A stretch of DNA of 64,000 nucleotides from Mayamaea pseudoterrestris (GCA_027923505.1 BROI01000003.1:124001-188000), one strand, 5' to 3'. Numbered from the stretch's first letter, positions 54,370-62,838 are shown. The notes: generated from the sequence alone by a model not told the origin. Numbers and translations are program-made.

Positions 54370-55845
54370 ATGACGAATCCATTGCAGCAGCTGGTTGCAA
54401 ACTTTTGGAAAATGTCTACCCTGTTGCGCAACGAAAAGCTCGCCGACGTTTGGATGAATCTTTCACCCGGCCAGTCGGCACTGGATGTTGGCGTGATTAC
54501 CAACAATGACTTGCACGACGAAAAAGTCCGACTCTGCTTTCGCAACTACACGGATCGCAACTTGCTGCTATGTTGGATGGATGATGAAGGGACGCCGCAT
54601 CACTTCTACAAACTCAAAATATGTCGGGTTGACGAAGATGCGCCAGTGACGGAAAACGATCATTTGGAGCAATCGTTTTGCGGACATGCCTTTGGCTTGT
54701 ACGAGTATGATGAAGACAACGTTCAGGATGACGACGAAGAGACGGCGCGCATGCCTCCAAGCGTTCTGCTGGAACCAAACACGCGACTGATTGGAGGATA
54801 TCGGCCACTGCGTTCCAAGCAAATGACGGTAACAAGATTGAGAAGGGGAACGAAGCAAGATGAAAGCCATAACGACGATGAGGAAGACGACGACGAACAA
54901 GACAAGGAGAAGCGCTTTCCTTGTCACCTGATTTGCATTGAAACTGCTCAAGAGACTATAACATGTCGACCCTGCAAAATGCTGCGAGGATCTTCGCCGA
55001 TTCGAGCAGTCGCGATGCAGAATAGACAAGCTGCCGATGCCTCCATTGAGTCTACCTTGGATATTAGCATTAGTAGCAAACTCGTGTATCTTGATCCGAC
55101 TCCGATTGATACAACGATTCAAAAGCTGTATTGTCAGTACCTGATTGCAAACTGGCCAGTATTCATGACCCAAGCCGACTACAAGAGTCTCACCAAGGGG
55201 CAAAAGCTGGCTCTGGAAACCGACTTGAGCATTCTGCAAGAGTGTTTGCCGGAACACGCTTCCAAGGCGCTCCGCTGCAACACGCCCCTGTACGTCAACA
55301 AGTCGCTCAAGTACGGCCCAGCGCTATGTCCGCAAAAGGCGTCGGGCATGTGCTTCCACCCCGGCATTGAATGGCTCGCCGAAAATGGCTTGCACCGGCA
55401 AAAGGTGGAATGCGTTGAAATGTACTCGCTGGCGGAATATCTAAAGGAGCGAAATGGCTTTTGGCAACCGGGCGGCTTGCTGCTTCATGAATATAGTCAC
55501 GCGTACCACTACAAGATGCTCACAGATGGTTACGACAATGCCACCGTCAAGGAATGCTACGACCAAGCTATGCGCGACAAGCTGTATGACGCGGTTCACT
55601 ACCACAAGATGGATGGCACCAAGCACTCCAAACCGACGCGCGCCTATGCGTGCACGGACCAAATGGAGTATTTTGCCGAGCTCAGTGTGGCGTTTTTGGG
55701 CGGCCTTGACGACGCGGTGGAATTCAACAAGTGGTTTCCCTTTAACCGCAGCCAGTTGAAGCAGCATGATCCGCGAGCATTCGCCATGCTTAAAAAAGTT
55801 TGGAAAATGGATGACTTGACACTACGAGGGAGTAATGGTCATTGA
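54370..55845 (+). CDS. VHL-beta-like domain fused to an HExxH zinc-metallopeptidase (MtfA / anthrax lethal factor-like zincin)
   Basis: N-terminal VRLCFRNYTDRNLLLCWMDDEGTPHHFYKL..EQSFCGHAF. C-terminal LLHEYSHAYH ... YACTDQMEYFAE ... FPFNRSQLKQHDP. Single exon. Confidence 0.7.
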   Translation: MTNPLQQLVANFWKMSTLLRNEKLADVWMNLSPGQSALDVGVITNNDLHDEKVRLCFRNYTDRNLLLCWMDDEGTPHHFYKLKICRVDEDAPVTENDHLEQSFCGHAFGLYEYDEDNVQDDDEETARMPPSVLLEPNTRLIGGYRPLRSKQMTVTRLRRGTKQDESHNDDEEDDDEQDKEKRFPCHLICIETAQETITCRPCKMLRGSSPIRAVAMQNRQAADASIESTLDISISSKLVYLDPTPIDTTIQKLYCQYLIANWPVFMTQADYKSLTKGQKLALETDLSILQECLPEHASKALRCNTPLYVNKSLKYGPALCPQKASGMCFHPGIEWLAENGLHRQKVECVEMYSLAEYLKERNGFWQPGGLLLHEYSHAYHYKMLTDGYDNATVKECYDQAMRDKLYDAVHYHKMDGTKHSKPTRAYACTDQMEYFAELSVAFLGGLDDAVEFNKWFPFNRSQLKQHDPRAFAMLKKVWKMDDLTLRGSNGH

Positions 55846-56178
55846 CGATCGATCGCCCGGCTGGTAGGCTGGCACTGCCTATGGTAGATGTCATGCGGCC
55901 CTCGACGAGTCGCACACGTTGCAAGCGTTATGTAATAATGCAGTATACACTATGGAGTTCCAATCTATCTGTAGCTTCACAGGAAGAAATTTTGATCACG
56001 CGAAAGACATCTATCGCCTACGGAATGGCAAATGTACAAGCATGAAGTAACGTGTAAATCATTTAACTTTAATACAATACACCGTACATTTTGTGTGTGT
56101 GTTTTACGCTATTTTGTACAAAGCGTAGCTGTGAACTTGTCTGAGTGCGTGACAAGCCCTGCAAGTATTATTTGCTGC

Positions 56179-57471
56179 TCACTCAAAGCACCCTTCCGTT
56201 CCATAGTAGTCGCCGCACCGGTCGGCTGCACCTGCTGCCGCCACCATGTTGTAGCCTTCCACCTCCAAATCATCCTCGACATGTTCCGTTTCGCGCCAGC
56301 ACCGACTCAAGTGCTCGCGAATGGGGTCCGTCTGCTGCGTCTGCGTCTTTATGAGCTTGAGCGTTAGCTCGGGTGATGGGCGTCCAAAAAAGACTTGCTC
56401 GCTCGTGCCGAGCCAGTAGAAGCAAAAGTATTGCGGACTCACAAGAATCAACTGTCCATCCACCCATAGTGGAAGCTTGTTGCTGTTGCTGCTCTCAACG
56501 TCACTTGGCCGCGGCGCCAGGAATATGGTGCCATCATTGTCAATGGTGGTGCGTGGTACTGGCTCCTCGACGCGACCTTTTCCCACGAAGCGTGGCAGAA
56601 AGGTTTGACCGCCCCACAGGGCGGCATCCGCCATGGCGTCGGCCTGCAGCTGAATGGGAGCCAAACCCATGGTTTCGTCACTGGCACCCAGTGGAACGGA
56701 AAAGATTGGCAACTGCTGCTGCTGCATGCTTGTGGTTCGTCCAGTCACCTTGTGCGCCACAAGCATGTCATCGTCCGTGTAGGTCACGTTGATGAGCTCA
56801 AACTTGCCGCCGCTGCCACCAAACTTGCCCACCCATAGTCCCTGCAGCTGAAACTGCGGCAGCGCCTCCCTAGCTTCCATTGCCTGCGCTTGGTAGTGCA
56901 GGGCGAGCGTGTATTGCCGCTGGCGCTGCGCCAAGTGGCTGCGCTGCTTGGCCGTGGCGTAAACGTATTCGGCGTCCACTTGCTGGGCTTGCAAGATGCT
57001 GCGTTCGAGTTGCTGAATGCGAGAGTCAAGTGTAGTTGAAGAAGAAGAAGAAGAAGAAGAAGAAATTTCGTCACTATGGAACGCTTGCCGCCGCCTTGTT
57101 TTTCGCCGACTGTTAGATTGTTGTTGCTGTAATCGGAGCGATTGCAGCTCCTGCGAAAGCTCCAAGACCTTGGCGCGGAGCGCTTGAAGATCGTCGCCTT
57201 GGAGAAACCGAGGACTTGGCGAGTCTGGCGTTTGTGGATCACTATTCTTGGAGTCTCCTCGAAGGTCGACGCTGCTAATGCCAGGTTGATAGGAAGATGA
57301 CGATGACGACGAGTCATCCTGTGCCGTCATGCTACGACATGTTACGGAAGCGCCAATGCTGCTGGTACTCATCCTGCGTGAAGCAATAATGTTGTGAAGG
57401 GGGTTCACAATGAAAGCGGCAGCGCCGTTTGACGAAAGAAGTAAAGAAACGGCGGTCCACCATGAGACCAT
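56179..57471 (-). CDS. Plastid-targeted DUF3506 / Cyclin_D1_bind-domain (EXECUTER-like) protein, paralogue 1 (intronless)
   Basis: Signal peptide ending AAA-FIV, Ser/Arg-rich transit peptide, coiled coil, LPQFQLQGLWVGKFG..ELINVTY..AHKVTG, WVDGQLI and FFGRPSPEL. Confidence 0.7.
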   Translation of the reverse strand: MVSWWTAVSLLLSSNGAAAFIVNPLHNIIASRRMSTSSIGASVTCRSMTAQDDSSSSSSSYQPGISSVDLRGDSKNSDPQTPDSPSPRFLQGDDLQALRAKVLELSQELQSLRLQQQQSNSRRKTRRRQAFHSDEISSSSSSSSSTTLDSRIQQLERSILQAQQVDAEYVYATAKQRSHLAQRQRQYTLALHYQAQAMEAREALPQFQLQGLWVGKFGGSGGKFELINVTYTDDDMLVAHKVTGRTTSMQQQQLPIFSVPLGASDETMGLAPIQLQADAMADAALWGGQTFLPRFVGKGRVEEPVPRTTIDNDGTIFLAPRPSDVESSNSNKLPLWVDGQLILVSPQYFCFYWLGTSEQVFFGRPSPELTLKLIKTQTQQTDPIREHLSRCWRETEHVEDDLEVEGYNMVAAAGAADRCGDYYGTEGCFE

Positions 57472-57950
57472 TGCTTGATAAGAATCGACTCGATTAGTCT
57501 AGCGAAAGTCCTGTAACTTAGACACGGCAGAAGAACGCTTTTGGTCGCGCAATATCTTTCGCAGCAAGAGGGCGAGAGAGAGGAGAGAAGGAACAAGTCA
57601 GACGCTTGGTTTGCTTGTGTCCAGGGTCGCGACAAGTTGCCGAGCCAATGGTGGAGCCGCACCTCTTCGGAAGGACGAAACGTCAGTCATCTTTTCCGGC
57701 CACGCCGACGACGTTTCTACTCTTTGGTGCACTCTGCCAGAACTTTGGTGTCACAATTTCGGCCAGCGCTCGACGAATCAACGAATTGAAACGCTGCAGA
57801 GTGTGAGAATGTGAAATGACGTACGTGTCGTAGGGCATAAGTCGCGTGACGCCGACACGAATGACGTCAAGTGACATGGAAAACGCTCGCTCACTTTTTG
57901 GCATTTGCCTCGCGACAACTTCCGTCAAGCACGCGACTCTTTGATCGACC

Positions 57951-59373
57951 ATGGTGGCACCTCAACGACGGCTAACTGCGTCCCTTTCTCTGTTGCTAGC
58001 GCTTGGCTTGAGCAGTCGCTTCACACAGTCCTTTGTCGCCGTTCGAACGCCAGCGCCGCGTCAAATTTTGCACCGCCTGCACGAAGCGTCATTGTCCGAC
58101 AAAAGCAGCAGCAACGACAATGACTACATGTACCATCCCTCCGAATTCTTGAATCTGGAACCACTGCCACCGCCGTCGGATCGACGACTGGAGCGGTTGC
58201 AACAGGAAATGGAGGCGCAGTCGCAGTTTGTCACCTTTGGCGACGAACTATGGAAACTTCGCGCCAACATGGACGACTTGTCGAAGCAACTGGTGCAGAA
58301 GATGCGAGCATCACTGCAACAGCAAAACAAGCAAAACAAAAAGGAATTAGAACATGTAGATGACGAGTTTGAGCATATACGACAGCAATTGCGTCGAATG
58401 GAAGCACAAGATCCCGAACTCGTCTACAAGCTCGAGCTGAGCGATGCCAAGGAAGCTATTTCGAAGCGCGACAAGGAACGTCACGAAGCCAAAGCGGTTG
58501 CGGCCCGAAGCTGCTTGCCACAGTTTCAGTTGGATGGCCTCTGGGTCGGCAAGTATGGAGCTCATGGATATGAGCTCATCAATGTGAGTGCAATCGATAC
58601 ATGCATAAGGTGCCAATAAGGGGCAGGTGCTGCATTTTGATAGGACGCATCTCGACGAGATGACATGAAATGTCATGCTATGACACCTGCACCATCACCA
58701 GCGCTCATCAAGCTTTACCCTTTTATTCTTAGGTAACCTACGTTGGTGACACATTGTTTGCTACCAAGGTTACGGGCGACCGCAACGTTCCCCGCGGTGA
58801 AATTACCTTTCAAATTGATCTAAGTCCGCTTCGCTCCGCCACCGACGCAGTGTTACAACCAATCGTCTTGTCCGAAAAGGCTGCCAGCAAGTGGAAGACC
58901 CAAAAGCTTCCACGCTATGGCGGTTTGGGACAAGTTGCCGAAAATGGCTTTCGAAACCATCAGTGGATGGTACGTTGATGCTCTCGGGACATGCATTCGG
59001 GAAAGAATGTATTTCCGTCAAACTCACATACCTGAAATTATTCTCTCAGGACGGCCAACTGATTATTATTGGCAAAGATTATTTTTCGTTCGCATGGATT
59101 CCGATTGAGCAGCAAATATTCTTTGGACGACCTTCGCCAGAGCTTGCACTCAAAATGTTACGTGAACATGGTGTTGCCCCGCTTCGATCATCTGTCGCTG
59201 CTGGACCCGTCAACGTCGACGACCAGCTCGAGGTACAAAAGGAGTATGCCATGCGATGCCTTGAGATGACAGATGAAGTGTTTGAAGACGAGTTGGATTT
59301 GGAGCTGGACGATGCGCCTGGGTTCAGCTGTATCTGGCGAGGCAATGACTCGGACGAGTGCTACTTTGAGTAA
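57951..59373 (+). CDS. Plastid-targeted DUF3506 / Cyclin_D1_bind-domain (EXECUTER-like) protein, paralogue 2 (3 exons, 397 aa)
   Basis: Introns 58584-58732 and 58970-59049. Signal peptide ending TQS-FVA. GLWVGKYGAHGYELINVTY..ATKVTGDRNVPRGEITF, GLGQVAENGF and WMDGQLI are present. Confidence 0.78.
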
Positions 59374-59538
59374 ATCGACCGCTAATTTACAGGTCACCTT
59401 GCGTACATACAAAGCAAACAGACGGAGCAACTGTATATGCATGCATCTTTAGAATCAAGGGCGATGAGACCATCCCCATACATACTGTATTATAACTACA
59501 GCTACATCATTCAACAAGAAATGCTGCAGTACGCGTAT

Positions 59539-61611
59539 TTATTGGCCCTTGTCCAGTAGCCTTCTTGTGTGTTTCTCAAGCTTCTTTTGCAGCTTCTTAC
59601 GAAGTCGAATCGAGACCTCCGAACCATCCGCGTTGGTAGTCGGAAAACCATCACTATCATATTCCAGAAAGCGCCCTTCATACACGCCCATCTTGAAAAA
59701 CATTTCGACCGGCACGTTACGGAGCTCGTCTTGTCTGCGACCAACATTAGCTTCGGCAGGAGCGCGATTGTTATTCATCGTAACTTCTTGATCGCCAGAT
59801 CCGTCTGGCACGCATGGTCGCCATAGGGATAAGTTGTTTCCGTTCGTGGTCGACTCGCCATCAAGTAACTCGATTCCAATTGCTCGGAACGTATTGTCTC
59901 GAGCATCATCACAGAGCTCAAGTATTTCACGAGCATGGGCCGAGTCCTTCTCAATTTTAAGCCCGCCCATGGCTGCTGCACGCACAGATGCCCGAAAATT
60001 GACCATCGCATCCAAAAGTACTCTTTCGCCGCCGGCGACAATCAAAGGTGCTGCATGACGAGCTTGCAGACCAGCGCGACAAGTGATGTCCGAAAAGCCA
60101 ATCATTGCACAAAGCTTTCGAACAGTTCGGTCCAACACTTGGATTGTTTCCACTATTCCTCCATTCGATTGCTTCAAGTACGTTGCACCCTTGTCAACCA
60201 AGTCTAGCAACTCTCGACAAAATGTCATCCCATCCATGTCGTTGTAGAGTGCGCGCATACATTGTTCGCGTGTTTCGTGTGCGCTCCATAGCAAGTCTCG
60301 GTCTATCGACGACCACTTGCAAGCATTGTTGCCTGGTTTGTTGATGCATTCTTGTGCACTGACTAGAAAACGAATCACCTTCATGCGCTGATCTCGCGCT
60401 TGTTCCATTTGCAACTGCGTAAACGTACTTGGTCCACGATAACTGGATTGGATGCACCACCAGCGAAAGTCGTCGGCTGGACTGGAAAATGGACTGTTAG
60501 TAGCTGAATCCAGCAAGTAGTCCTGAACAGTGACAAAATTCTTGAGCGACTTGCTCATTTTCATTCCATCAATGTGTAAATGACCCGTGTGCATCCAATG
60601 AGGAATCCAATGGTCGCTGATGGTAGATGCTGGCGACTGTCTTGAATCGACATTATTGTTTCCATGATCACTGCTGCAACACGCTGCCATGGCTTCACTT
60701 TGCGCAATCTCATTGGTATGATGCGGAAAATGCAAGTCGACTCCACCAATATGAAGATAGAAAGGAACAGGTTGTATTTCCTCTTGAACGGCTCGAATCA
60801 TGGCGGAACATTCAATGTGCCAGCCCGGGCGACCAGGCATGCCGTTGGGTCCATTCCATACCAAGGCTTCGCCATGCTTTTGACGTTTCCAGAGACAAAA
60901 GTCACGTTGCTGCTGCTGCCGCTGATTGGTGATTGATTCATCTTGTTCCGTCGCTGACGCGTCAGATTGTCCTTGCTGCTGCTCCATGAGCCGACAATCA
61001 CGTTTGGAGTCACCACCTCCACGACGAAACTGCAAATACGTTTTGCCCGTTTTTCGCTCATATTCCGACACTGAAAAGTACACGCCATCCTCCTGTTCAT
61101 GTGCGTAGCCATGACGCAGCAAGTCCTTGACGAACGGCACAATGTGCGAGTCAACGTAGTCCGTGACGCGCACGACCACGTGAGGCCGCTGCACGTTCAT
61201 CGCGTCCATGTCGCGCCAAAATTCCGACTCCAATCGACTCGATAGAGTCAGTGGATCTATACTTTGGTCACTGGAGGCTTTCAGTATCTTGTCGTCAACA
61301 TCGGTAACGTTCATGACGAACAAAATGGGTGCAGCAGATGGCTGCTGCTCCAGTATGCATCGCAGAATATCCACCCACACGTAGGTGCGCGCGTGACCCA
61401 AGTGCGCGGGAGCGTACACCGTTGGTCCGCACGTGTAGCAGGCGAACGGCTGATCCGTGGGTAAGCGTTCCAGTGACGCTGTCAGGGAATTGTAAAGGTG
61501 CAGGCTTGTAGGTTGCGGCGGTGCCGTTGTCGCGTCGGATGCAAGCCATCGCCTCCATACTGACCTTGCTGAAACGAAAAGGGGTCGTTTATTTCTGATG
61601 CATACTATCAT
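59539..61611 (-). CDS. CARS: Cysteinyl-tRNA synthetase (probably organellar)
   Basis: YTCGPTVY..HLGH, NVTDVDDKI, DFCLWK, GRPGWHIECSAM, GGVDLHFPHHTNE and KMSKS. The Arg-rich, acid-free N-terminus resembles a mitochondrial presequence. Confidence 0.93.
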   Translation of the reverse strand: MIVCIRNKRPLFVSARSVWRRWLASDATTAPPQPTSLHLYNSLTASLERLPTDQPFACYTCGPTVYAPAHLGHARTYVWVDILRCILEQQPSAAPILFVMNVTDVDDKILKASSDQSIDPLTLSSRLESEFWRDMDAMNVQRPHVVVRVTDYVDSHIVPFVKDLLRHGYAHEQEDGVYFSVSEYERKTGKTYLQFRRGGGDSKRDCRLMEQQQGQSDASATEQDESITNQRQQQQRDFCLWKRQKHGEALVWNGPNGMPGRPGWHIECSAMIRAVQEEIQPVPFYLHIGGVDLHFPHHTNEIAQSEAMAACCSSDHGNNNVDSRQSPASTISDHWIPHWMHTGHLHIDGMKMSKSLKNFVTVQDYLLDSATNSPFSSPADDFRWWCIQSSYRGPSTFTQLQMEQARDQRMKVIRFLVSAQECINKPGNNACKWSSIDRDLLWSAHETREQCMRALYNDMDGMTFCRELLDLVDKGATYLKQSNGGIVETIQVLDRTVRKLCAMIGFSDITCRAGLQARHAAPLIVAGGERVLLDAMVNFRASVRAAAMGGLKIEKDSAHAREILELCDDARDNTFRAIGIELLDGESTTNGNNLSLWRPCVPDGSGDQEVTMNNNRAPAEANVGRRQDELRNVPVEMFFKMGVYEGRFLEYDSDGFPTTNADGSEVSIRLRKKLQKKLEKHTRRLLDKGQ

Positions 61612-61872: not shown

Positions 61873-62838
61873 ATGGCATCAGTTCCAGAACACTATGCGC
61901 TTTGCGAAATGGCGAATCATTGCCTGGCGGAGCGCCACCACCGCCGAGCCGCAACCTTGCTATGGGAGGCCTTTCGCAAATGCCCTTCGTCATGGACGTG
62001 TGGACGTTACAACATGTTTTCAATGTATGTGAGTGCCTTGAGCGAAGATACTTCCAGCAAACCTACTAGAAAGGACCTCAAGAATCTACAGTCAGTTCTA
62101 GACGATGAGATGGAGCTCAAGATATTCAGAGTGGCGGCTGGACAAGCGTTGGGATTGTTTTATGGAAGCGTCTTTCATGAACATGAAGACGCTGCTGACT
62201 TTTTTCGTCAAGCGATAAGCTTGGCAGATGCAGTGTCGGAACGTGAATTGAAGGAATGCAACGCTCACTCCATTTCGAACGACGGCTCTGACATTCGCAA
62301 TACCCTTGGCGAGCTGCGAAGCAACTGCAAGGCGAATCTGAATGCCATGGAAAACCCAGCCATGCACCGATTTCGGGTTGGAGAACCTCCCAATCTACCT
62401 TCCACCTTTCATCAGCGGTCGGATGGAACGATTGCCGAAACCAAGCCTTACCTGATGGACCTTCCTTCGAACGATCCAAATCGCGCCAAGGTTGGCGGCA
62501 GCGATTGCGACCATTGCCTCAAGACATTGGCGGAACTTGCCATTCCAAGGCTGAGCATTTGCACGCGCTGCAAAATGGCCTACTACTGCTCCAAGGAGTG
62601 CCAAAAGGCAGCATGGCGAAAGGGTCACAAGGTTGCATGTCGAGCACCCGACCAGCGCGAACGAGGCGATTTGATGAGACTCTTGCCGCTCGGGACGGAA
62701 GAGGAACATGTGTCAAAGCTTGTTACATTGGTGGAACAGCTTGCCAATGGGCAGTGGCAAGTCAAGCTAACGACTGCTCCGCATGAAACGTTGATTGTGG
62801 ACTCGGATAGACTTGCTCACATTCGGCCCGATAAGTGA
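61873..62838 (+). CDS. MYND zinc-finger protein with TPR-like helical N-terminus
   Basis: CDHC...CTRCKMAYYCSKECQKAAWRKGHKVAC. Confidence 0.85.
   Translation: MASVPEHYALCEMANHCLAERHHRRAATLLWEAFRKCPSSWTCGRYNMFSMYVSALSEDTSSKPTRKDLKNLQSVLDDEMELKIFRVAAGQALGLFYGSVFHEHEDAADFFRQAISLADAVSERELKECNAHSISNDGSDIRNTLGELRSNCKANLNAMENPAMHRFRVGEPPNLPSTFHQRSDGTIAETKPYLMDLPSNDPNRAKVGGSDCDHCLKTLAELAIPRLSICTRCKMAYYCSKECQKAAWRKGHKVACRAPDQRERGDLMRLLPLGTEEEHVSKLVTLVEQLANGQWQVKLTTAPHETLIVDSDRLAHIRPDK

What the first reader, a model, noticed from the sequence alone, without database searches (positions are those of the whole stretch)
56179..59373. Head-to-head pair of plastid-targeted EXECUTER-like (DUF3506) paralogues: candidate singlet-oxygen sensing / retrograde signalling module
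Seen: two genes diverge from a 479-bp spacer (57472-57950). Both encode a signal peptide with Phe at +1 (AAA-FIV, TQS-FVA), a coiled coil, a helical hairpin resembling a UVR motif (e.g. LAQRQRQYTLALHY), the block ARxxLPQFQLxGLWVGK..ELINVTY..KVTG, WxDGQLI, F.F.W, QxFFGRPSPEL, and an acidic tail ending C-x-FE. Four Trp positions and three C-terminal Cys appear shared. Established: in plants, the chloroplast DUF3506 proteins EXECUTER1/2 (UVR + DUF3506) mediate singlet-oxygen signalling through Trp oxidation in DUF3506, with EX2 modulating EX1. Inference: this may be a co-regulated sensor/modulator pair in a secondary (red-lineage) plastid. I do not know of such a pair having been characterised.
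Basis: partly seen in the sequence, partly recalled or inferred. Interest (0 to 1): 0.72.

Follow-up and report, generated by a model that had tools for sequence, protein, structure and literature searches.

The report
Paired diatom EXECUTER-like plastid genes
Two related diatom chloroplast genes sit head to head on a shared promoter, as they do in other diatoms, and one keeps the pocket with which the human protein FBXO31 recognises oxidatively broken protein ends, which points to a damage-reading role rather than simply a copy of the plant singlet-oxygen sensor pair.

Summary
The window has two transcribed PF12014 (DUF3506/SOS) paralogues, A (430 aa) and B (397 aa, two spliced introns), with plastid-type presequences and a 479-bp spacer. 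They belong to two old diatom clades. The head-to-head pair recurs in 7 of 9 informative metagenome loci, and the Fistulifera genes are consecutive. The spacers are enriched in the bZIP/aureochrome site TGACGT (21 vs 3.8 expected, seven other loci). The helical region aligns with true UVR motifs of distant relatives. Both proteins keep the EX1 Trp643 equivalent, but it is the least conserved shared Trp (49 of 107 distant representatives), and the duplication is independent of plant EX1/EX2. New lead: the only solved relative is FBXO31. B keeps its amide-reading residues (Y309, D334, I337 as Val, T343; 32 of 32 B-type, six with Ser for Thr), whereas A has lost them here (44 of 120 A-search hits intact). 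Best guess (0.35): a co-regulated reader/partner pair that hands oxidatively cleaved plastid proteins to Clp/FtsH. Binding, localisation and function are untested; no fold or complex model was available. The scan's earlier notes held nothing on this pair.

The parts
56179..57471 (-). Gene A: single-exon CDS, 430 aa; presequence, degenerate UVR-type hairpins, PF12014 barrel with degenerate pocket and a 25-aa insert, acidic tail
   Evidence: covered by contigs of the two runs that splice gene B
57415..57471 (-). Gene A signal peptide (aa 1-19), followed by Phe20 and a Ser/Thr-rich transit-like stretch
   Evidence: own heuristic; SignalP/ASAFind not run
56857..57198 (-). Gene A helical region (about aa 92-205), collinear with tandem UVR motifs of distant homologues
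   Evidence: through the family alignment
56380..56847 (-). Gene A PF12014 (SOS/DUF3506) domain, aa 209-364; Phe, Arg and non-matching residues at the FBXO31 Y309, D334, I337, T343 positions
56464..56466 (-). Gene A Trp336, equivalent of EX1 Trp643
   Evidence: motif match to the EX1 peptide in PMC6597547
57472..57950 (.). Shared divergent spacer, 479 bp, with four TGACGT sites (57680-57685 -, 57817-57822 +, 57862-57867 +, 57864-57869 -)
57951..58583 (+). Gene B exon 1 (aa 1-211): signal peptide, Phe28, helical hairpins (about aa 97-190), start of the barrel with Tyr202 (58554-58556, = FBXO31 Y309)
58584..58732 (+). Gene B intron 1, 149 nt, GT-AG
   Evidence: skipped in contigs of runs X2 and X4
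58733..58969 (+). Gene B exon 2 (aa 212-290): Asp227, Val230, Thr236 (= FBXO31 D334, I337, T343) and Trp289 (58964-58966, = EX1 Trp643)
58970..59049 (+). Gene B intron 2, 80 nt, GT-AG
   Evidence: skipped in contigs of runs X2 and X4
59050..59373 (+). Gene B exon 3 (aa 291-397): end of barrel, acidic tail with B-clade Cys384 and Cys394, stop
59539..61611 (-). Cysteinyl-tRNA synthetase-like gene (PF01406): conserved neighbour of the pair, here on the B side, on the A side in three other loci

Best explanation
Shown: two transcribed paralogues from an old diatom duplication, kept head to head around a spacer rich in TGACGT, each built as presequence, two degenerate UVR-type hairpins, a PF12014 barrel and an acidic tail. 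Inferred: both are imported into the plastid and are switched on together by bZIP/aureochrome-type factors. B uses its intact FBXO31-type pocket to bind C-terminal amides, the ends left when radicals break protein backbones, and the UVR-derived hairpins hand the catch to the plastid Clp or FtsH machinery. A has a relaxed pocket (lost in this lineage) and acts as a partner or modulator, or reads a different end group. Any signal to the nucleus would be downstream of this quality-control step. The Trp643-equivalent residue would be a rim or turnover site, not the essential sensor.
For: FBXO31 (5VZT) is the only solved relative: E 3.1e-10 for B, 1 of 7 rows under E 0.5; E 2.2e-8 for the family profile. 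The four residues whose mutation abolishes amide binding in PMC11821526 (Y309, D334, I337, T343) fall on B Tyr202, Asp227, Val230, Thr236 in an ungapped stretch with the same spacing, 25/3/6. Pocket intact (Y, D, V/I, T/S) in 32 of 32 B-search hits (26 with Thr), 7 of 7 of the UVR-bearing group, 44 of 120 A-search hits, 0 of 5 of gene A's own subclade. Among 107 distant representatives covering both sites, Asp at D334 is in 77 and Trp at W643 in 49. Linkage: 7 of 9 informative loci; Fistulifera 1Hh588/1Hh589 on one contig. TGACGT 21 vs 3.8 expected in seven other spacers; the motif is bound by PtAureo1a and PtbZIP11. Plant EX1/EX2 are caught by a ClpC1 trap, and the Chlamydomonas homologue is enriched with ClpC1 and ClpP in one proximity set.
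Against: No binding, localisation, co-expression or interaction data. No structure or complex model was obtained. Overall similarity to FBXO31 is short (48 well-aligned residues plus a weak second stretch), and a kept pocket may bind another ligand. C-terminal amides were shown for hydroxyl-radical cleavage in human cells, not in plastids. The A pocket keeps its Asp in 5 of the 7 paired loci, so 'reader plus dead partner' is not universal. The pair is broken in 2 of 9 loci, and a third gene (CysRS) is also a conserved neighbour in 3 loci. TGACGT enrichment is individually significant in only 3 of the 7 test spacers and absent in one.
Confidence: 0.35

Rival explanations
1. One reading: an EX1/EX2-like singlet-oxygen sensor and modulator. 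Oxidation of the Trp643-equivalent triggers FtsH cleavage and a released hairpin signals to the nucleus.
For: Both proteins keep Trp and Gly at the EX1 643 and 646 positions; Trp in 105 of 120 A-search and 29 of 32 B-search hits; UVR-derived hairpins; co-regulation signs.
Against: That Trp is the least conserved of the four shared Trp (the others 120 of 120 in the A set). It is Tyr or Met in the Phaeodactylum and Fistulifera B proteins, and 0 of 7 in the UVR-bearing group. The EX1/EX2 split is in seed plants, and EX has not been identified in Chlamydomonas singlet-oxygen signalling. Export would have to cross four membranes (established knowledge, recalled). EX Trp565 lies in a plant insert that diatoms lack (by eye).
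Confidence: 0.25
2. The pocket binds a specific unmodified C-terminus or small ligand, possibly the partner's own conserved (C)FE tail, and the pair is a scaffold or assembly factor in the plastid.
For: The very end is strongly conserved (CFE in 95 of 120 A-search hits, CYFE in 20 of 32 B-search hits). FBXO31 was crystallised with an unmodified peptide, and loss of D334 redirects it to free-acid ends; many A proteins lack that Asp (40 of 112 keep it).
Against: Both tails end in Glu, which an acidic pocket should repel (inference). The UVR-bearing group lacks the tail but keeps the pocket.
Confidence: 0.2
3. The adjacency is left over from an inverted tandem duplication inside a slowly rearranging block; the two genes work independently and A is drifting.
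For: CysRS is also a kept neighbour in 3 loci and the window; 2 of 9 loci have B without A beside it; gene A's subclade is on a long branch and has lost the pocket.
Against: The pair stays together while CysRS changes sides and is kept where CysRS was not found within 5-6 kb (L068, L079). Spacers stay short (477-1382 bp) and TGACGT-rich. A is intact, transcribed and conserved outside the pocket.
Confidence: 0.2

Closest known systems
Arabidopsis EXECUTER1/EXECUTER2 (AT4G33630, AT1G27510; UVR + PF12014/SOS)
   Same: PF12014 domain; Trp643 and Gly646 equivalents; plastid targeting (predicted here); helical hairpins of UVR descent; two paralogues. By eye in the supplement of PMC13477036, EX1 and EX2 keep the D334 and I337 equivalents and EX2 also T343.
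   Different: About 400 aa with hairpins directly before the barrel, versus a much longer plant protein with a long middle region; an extra acidic tail after the barrel; no Pfam-level UVR; no Trp565 insert; independent duplication; genes physically paired. Orthology was not tested in a tree, as no plant sequence could be obtained's alignments.
Human FBXO31 substrate-binding domain (PDB 5VZT/5VZU), reader of C-terminal amides
   Same: PF12014 barrel; B keeps Y309, D334, I337 (as Val) and T343 at the same spacing.
   Different: No F-box, so no SCF link; plastid-type presequence; UVR-derived hairpins instead; A has lost the pocket residues; binding untested.
Compact UVR + PF12014 proteins (atlas cluster of 108 members, commonest Haptophyta)
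   Same: Same compact layout; profile alignment runs through both UVR motifs and the barrel (probability 99.9, 216 columns); pocket intact in 7 of 7.
   Different: They carry recognisable UVR motifs (5 of 17 distant proteins scanned are over the cut-off, one more just under), lack the Trp643 equivalent and the long acidic tail. The taxa of my own sequences in this group were not determined.

Membership tests
PF12014 (Cyclin_D1_bind / DUF3506 / SOS) | Score over the Pfam cut-off of 22 bits | tested here: met
   A 28.9 bits; B 88.7 bits
EXECUTER (plant EX1/EX2) | C-terminal SOS domain | tested here: met
   a 70-80 aa tail follows the domain in both diatom proteins
EXECUTER (plant EX1/EX2) | Trp at the EX1 Trp643 position | tested here: met
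   A Trp336, B Trp289 by motif match to the peptide in PMC6597547; not universal in the diatom family
EXECUTER (plant EX1/EX2) | UvrB/C (PF02151) motif | tested here: inconclusive
   No Pfam hit in A or B; not among the 25 of 32 families shown for 75 members; collinear with true UVR motifs of distant homologues
EXECUTER (plant EX1/EX2) | Plastid localisation | tested here: inconclusive
   Signal peptide + Phe heuristic met in 68 of 97 A-search and 25 of 32 B-search proteins, versus 7.0 and 3.2 after shuffling; prediction only
EXECUTER (plant EX1/EX2) | Membership of the EX1 or EX2 clade | tested here: not met
   Those clades arose in seed plants (PMC13477036); the diatom A and B clades are a separate duplication. 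No joint tree with plant sequences was built.
EXECUTER (plant EX1/EX2) | Singlet-oxygen-dependent Trp oxidation, FtsH turnover and nuclear gene response | not testable with these tools
   needs experiments
FBXO31-type C-terminal amide reader | Pocket residues Y309, D334, I337, T343 | tested here: met
   Met for gene B; not met for gene A
FBXO31-type C-terminal amide reader | F-box motif linking to SCF | tested here: not met
   No F-box family in Pfam scans of A or B
FBXO31-type C-terminal amide reader | Selective binding of amidated peptides | not testable with these tools
   needs a binding assay

The most novel reading that the evidence does not exclude
The EXECUTER 'singlet oxygen sensor' domain is at root an FBXO31-type reader of C-terminal amides. 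Diatoms run a co-regulated, head-to-head reader/partner pair that routes oxidatively broken plastid proteins to Clp/FtsH, and plant EX1/EX2 signalling is a later use of the same pocket.
Probability: 0.3. Interest if true: 0.85.

Novelty: new variant of a known kind. Interest (0 to 1): 0.58.

Why it matters
How EXECUTER proteins sense damage at the molecular level is still open, and the 2026 review of the family covers green plants only (no mention of diatoms in its main text). The pocket mapping gives a cheap, direct test: amidated versus free-acid peptide binding by a compact 400-aa diatom protein, with a natural pocket-less paralogue and an Asp-to-Asn mutant as controls. A positive result would tie plastid quality control to a modification-based degron known so far from human cells, and would recast the plant SOS domain. 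The conserved divergent pair also allows one-step double knockouts in Phaeodactylum-like models.

Tried and rejected
A search for long relatives with alignment A2 covered only 820-2340 aa and found none, so it missed plant EX proteins; plant residues were read by eye from a supplement instead. A scan of prokaryotic genomes with A2 found 13 pattern matches and no relative, although the atlas lists a mostly bacterial stand-alone PF12014 cluster; bacterial gene context is therefore unknown. No RNA holder was listed as such; runs X2 and X4 are taken as RNA only because they skip both introns; contigs cannot give expression level. Further paralogues in the own genome: none found (2 matches of 3 candidates; 1 of 1); these are lower bounds. 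My first guess that EX Trp565 equals A Trp213/B Trp198 was dropped after reading the plant sequences. A recent lineage-specific duplication was rejected by the trees. Six other window neighbours had no match in the 78 loci. Literature searches with no result: FBXO31 + EXECUTER; four accessions incl. PF12014; chloroplast + C-terminal amid + singlet oxygen + FtsH. EXECUTER1 + cyclin D1 gave one unrelated listing. Earlier scan notes: nothing by place or sequence; eight unrelated notes by words.

Full report
1. The genes. Gene A is a single ORF at 56179-57471 (-), 430 aa. Gene B has three exons (57951-58583, 58733-58969, 59050-59373) and gives 397 aa with GT-AG introns of 149 and 80 nt. Database entry P0124 is identical to this product. 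Contigs of runs X2 and X4 (2 of 4 laid, one study) skip both introns and also cover gene A, so both genes are transcribed; level cannot be read from contigs. A and B are 32% identical over 352 columns. Both pass the PF12014 cut-off, and they are the only two matches in the own genome (a lower bound). All named close relatives are diatoms.

2. Four Trp are shared. Only one Cys is in a shared column (A C391/B C360, Cys in 118 of 121 rows). B-type proteins have further Cys at 188, 384 and 394 (30, 30 and 29 of 32). A signal peptide followed by Phe was found by my own heuristic in 68 of 97 A-search proteins (23 of 120 dropped as short or without Met) and 25 of 32 B-search proteins, against 7.0 and 3.2 after shuffling. 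All 14 genes of the seven paired loci show it by eye. SignalP and ASAFind were not run.

3. Two old paralogues. In a tree of 170 rows the group holding B is set off by a branch of 0.72 with support 1.0. In a 69-row tree rooted on the UVR-bearing group, B and the B partners of all pairs fall in one starred clade; A and five of the seven locus partners fall in another; the partners in L068 and L079 lie outside both, unresolved (53 proteins chosen by me out of about 310, plus 16 locus rows; quick method). Gene A's own subclade is on a long branch (0.6 at its base).

4. Conserved linkage. Of 78 metagenome loci (best 80 of 192 related stretches), most are too short. Nine distinct loci have at least 1.5 kb upstream of the gene (L044-L046 counted once). 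Seven hold an A/B pair head to head (L003, L006, L044, L053, L068, L073, L079); two do not (L055, L066). L068 and L079 are close kin and not independent. The B core of L003 is identical to the Phaeodactylum protein P0143. Fistulifera FisN_1Hh588 (B) and FisN_1Hh589 (A) are consecutive on one contig; orientation was not seen. Four more A/B protein pairs share an identical longest-contig length (34578, 20359, 32301, 36546), which is circumstantial. A CysRS gene flanks the pair on the A side in L003, L006 and L044 and on the B side in the window: part of the linkage is ordinary microsynteny, yet the pair held together while CysRS changed sides.

5. The spacer. I noticed four TGACGT sites in the window spacer (0.49 expected, 1 of 500 shuffles) and then tested the seven other spacers: 21 sites against 3.8 expected. 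Three are individually significant (at most 2 of 500 shuffles), three are not, and L068 has none. Upstream regions of 28 other window ORFs average 0.39 per 480 bp, at most 2; 26 in the loci average 0.15, and the single 3 among them is a B-gene promoter that slipped the exclusion. TGACGT is bound by PtAureo1a (PMC4721966, passages) and TGACGT/C by PtbZIP11 (PMC11142338, passages). This suggests shared light or CO2/cAMP control; co-expression itself was not measured.

6. UVR. Pfam finds no UVR in A or B. Among 17 distant homologues scanned, 5 carry UVR over the cut-off and one just under, three with two stretches. These align collinearly with the diatom helical region; profile versus P0308 gives probability 99.9 over 216 columns running through both motifs (the score is dominated by the barrel). 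The hairpins are therefore most likely degenerate tandem UVR motifs. The atlas lists a UVR + PF12014 cluster that is mostly haptophyte (score 0.79, a lead only).

7. The EX1 oxidation site. The EX1 Trp643 peptide (PMC6597547, passages) matches A Trp336 and B Trp289 with the following Gly. But this Trp is kept in 105 of 120 A-search and 29 of 32 B-search hits, whereas the other three are kept in 120 of 120 and 30-32 of 32; it is absent in 7 of 7 of the UVR-bearing group and present in 49 of 107 distant representatives that cover the site (30 of 137 dropped as partial). It is Tyr in Phaeodactylum B and Met in Fistulifera B. EX1 and EX2 split in seed plants, and EX has not been identified in Chlamydomonas singlet-oxygen signalling (PMC13477036, sections 6 and 8).

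8. The FBXO31 pocket. The only solved relative is FBXO31. PMC11821526 (passages and section 9) shows that FBXO31 binds C-terminal amides made by hydroxyl-radical cleavage; Y309A, I337D, T343V and D334N abolish this, and D334N redirects it to free-acid ends. In the ungapped alignment these four positions fall on B Tyr202, Asp227, Val230 and Thr236; I fixed the FBXO31 numbering from residue identity and the matching spacing 25/3/6. The pocket is intact in 32 of 32 B-search hits (six with Ser for Thr), 7 of 7 of the UVR-bearing group, 44 of 120 A-search hits and 0 of 5 of gene A's subclade. In the strict A clade 40 of 112 keep the Asp; in the seven paired loci five A partners keep it. By eye in supplement mmc1 of PMC13477036 (parts 1, 2, 5), EX1, EX2 and the Chlamydomonas protein keep the Asp and Val; EX2 keeps Thr, EX1 has Ala; the Tyr is His or Phe. 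The domain homology is known (Pfam name; that supplement labels it SOS/Cyclin D1 bind), but I found no paper linking EXECUTER to FBXO31 or to amide reading (the library lacks most subscription journals).

9. Mechanism. Shown: genes, splicing, family, two clades, linkage, motif enrichment, residue conservation. Inferred: plastid import, co-regulation, amide binding by B, hand-over to proteases, an A-B complex. Support for the protease step is indirect: EX1/EX2 are caught by a ClpC1 trap, and the Chlamydomonas homologue is enriched with ClpC1 and ClpP in the LCP1 proximity set (bioRxiv 10.1101/2025.08.22.671721, passages). That UVR motifs mediate contacts with ClpC is recalled, not tested.

10. 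Novelty. The proteins are members of PF12014 and work-alikes, not members, of the plant EX1/EX2 clades; one relative is already auto-annotated as EXECUTER-like. The conserved divergent pair, the spacer motif and the pocket asymmetry were not found in print: listings for EXECUTER + diatom + singlet oxygen (18 papers), DUF3506 (11) and EXECUTER + Phaeodactylum (11), of which I read passages in seven; in PMC11135702 and PMC2947710 the term stands only in references, and bioRxiv 10.64898/2025.12.11.693581 mentions it once, for Arabidopsis. The supplements of that preprint (closed) may hold expression data for the pair; mmc2 of PMC13477036 was too large to read. Verdict: new variant of a known kind, interest 0.58.

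Noticed in passing
window 54370-55845 (+): 491-aa ORF tail to tail with gene A, no Pfam hit at E<=1; it has an HExxH motif, and the atlas places it in an unnamed diatom cluster (0.97) next to bacterial VHL-beta-domain and zincin-like (PF07737/PF06167) clusters (0.90-0.91). Likely a VHL-beta + zinc metallopeptidase protein. Not found beside the pair in other loci.
   Followed up: partly
window 59539-61611 (-); L003:324-2258, L006:530-2380, L044:3614-5293: CysRS-like gene is a conserved neighbour of the pair but has changed sides in the window's lineage.
   Followed up: partly
PMC13477036 supplement versus window 58239-58560: In plant EX proteins the tandem UVR region is followed by a Gly-Trp motif that looks, by eye, like the start of the diatom barrel. 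Plant EX may be UVR-UVR, a degenerate first barrel, a linker and the SOS barrel, i.e. an internal duplication of the compact algal form.
   Followed up: no
PMC8491031 versus PMC13477036 supplement: One review says the Chlamydomonas DUF3506 protein lacks the oxidised Trp; the sequence printed in the later supplement has a Trp at that motif.
   Followed up: no
atlas result for P0124: A cluster of 122-aa stand-alone PF12014 proteins, 75% bacterial (commonest Verrucomicrobiota), score 0.80; its gene context could show the ancestral role. My genome scan did not reach it.
   Followed up: partly
window 61873-62838 (+): 321-aa MYND-finger protein (PF01753) head to head with the CysRS gene; the short spacer between them has two TGACGT sites (61720, 61732).
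   Followed up: no
L066:609-1187 (-): Where the A partner is missing, another ORF with a signal-peptide-plus-Phe start lies head to head with the B gene.
   Followed up: no
window 55900-59600: The public runs show many single-base differences and small indels against the window, densest in the spacer and intron 2, consistent with a heterozygous diploid or a second strain.
   Followed up: no
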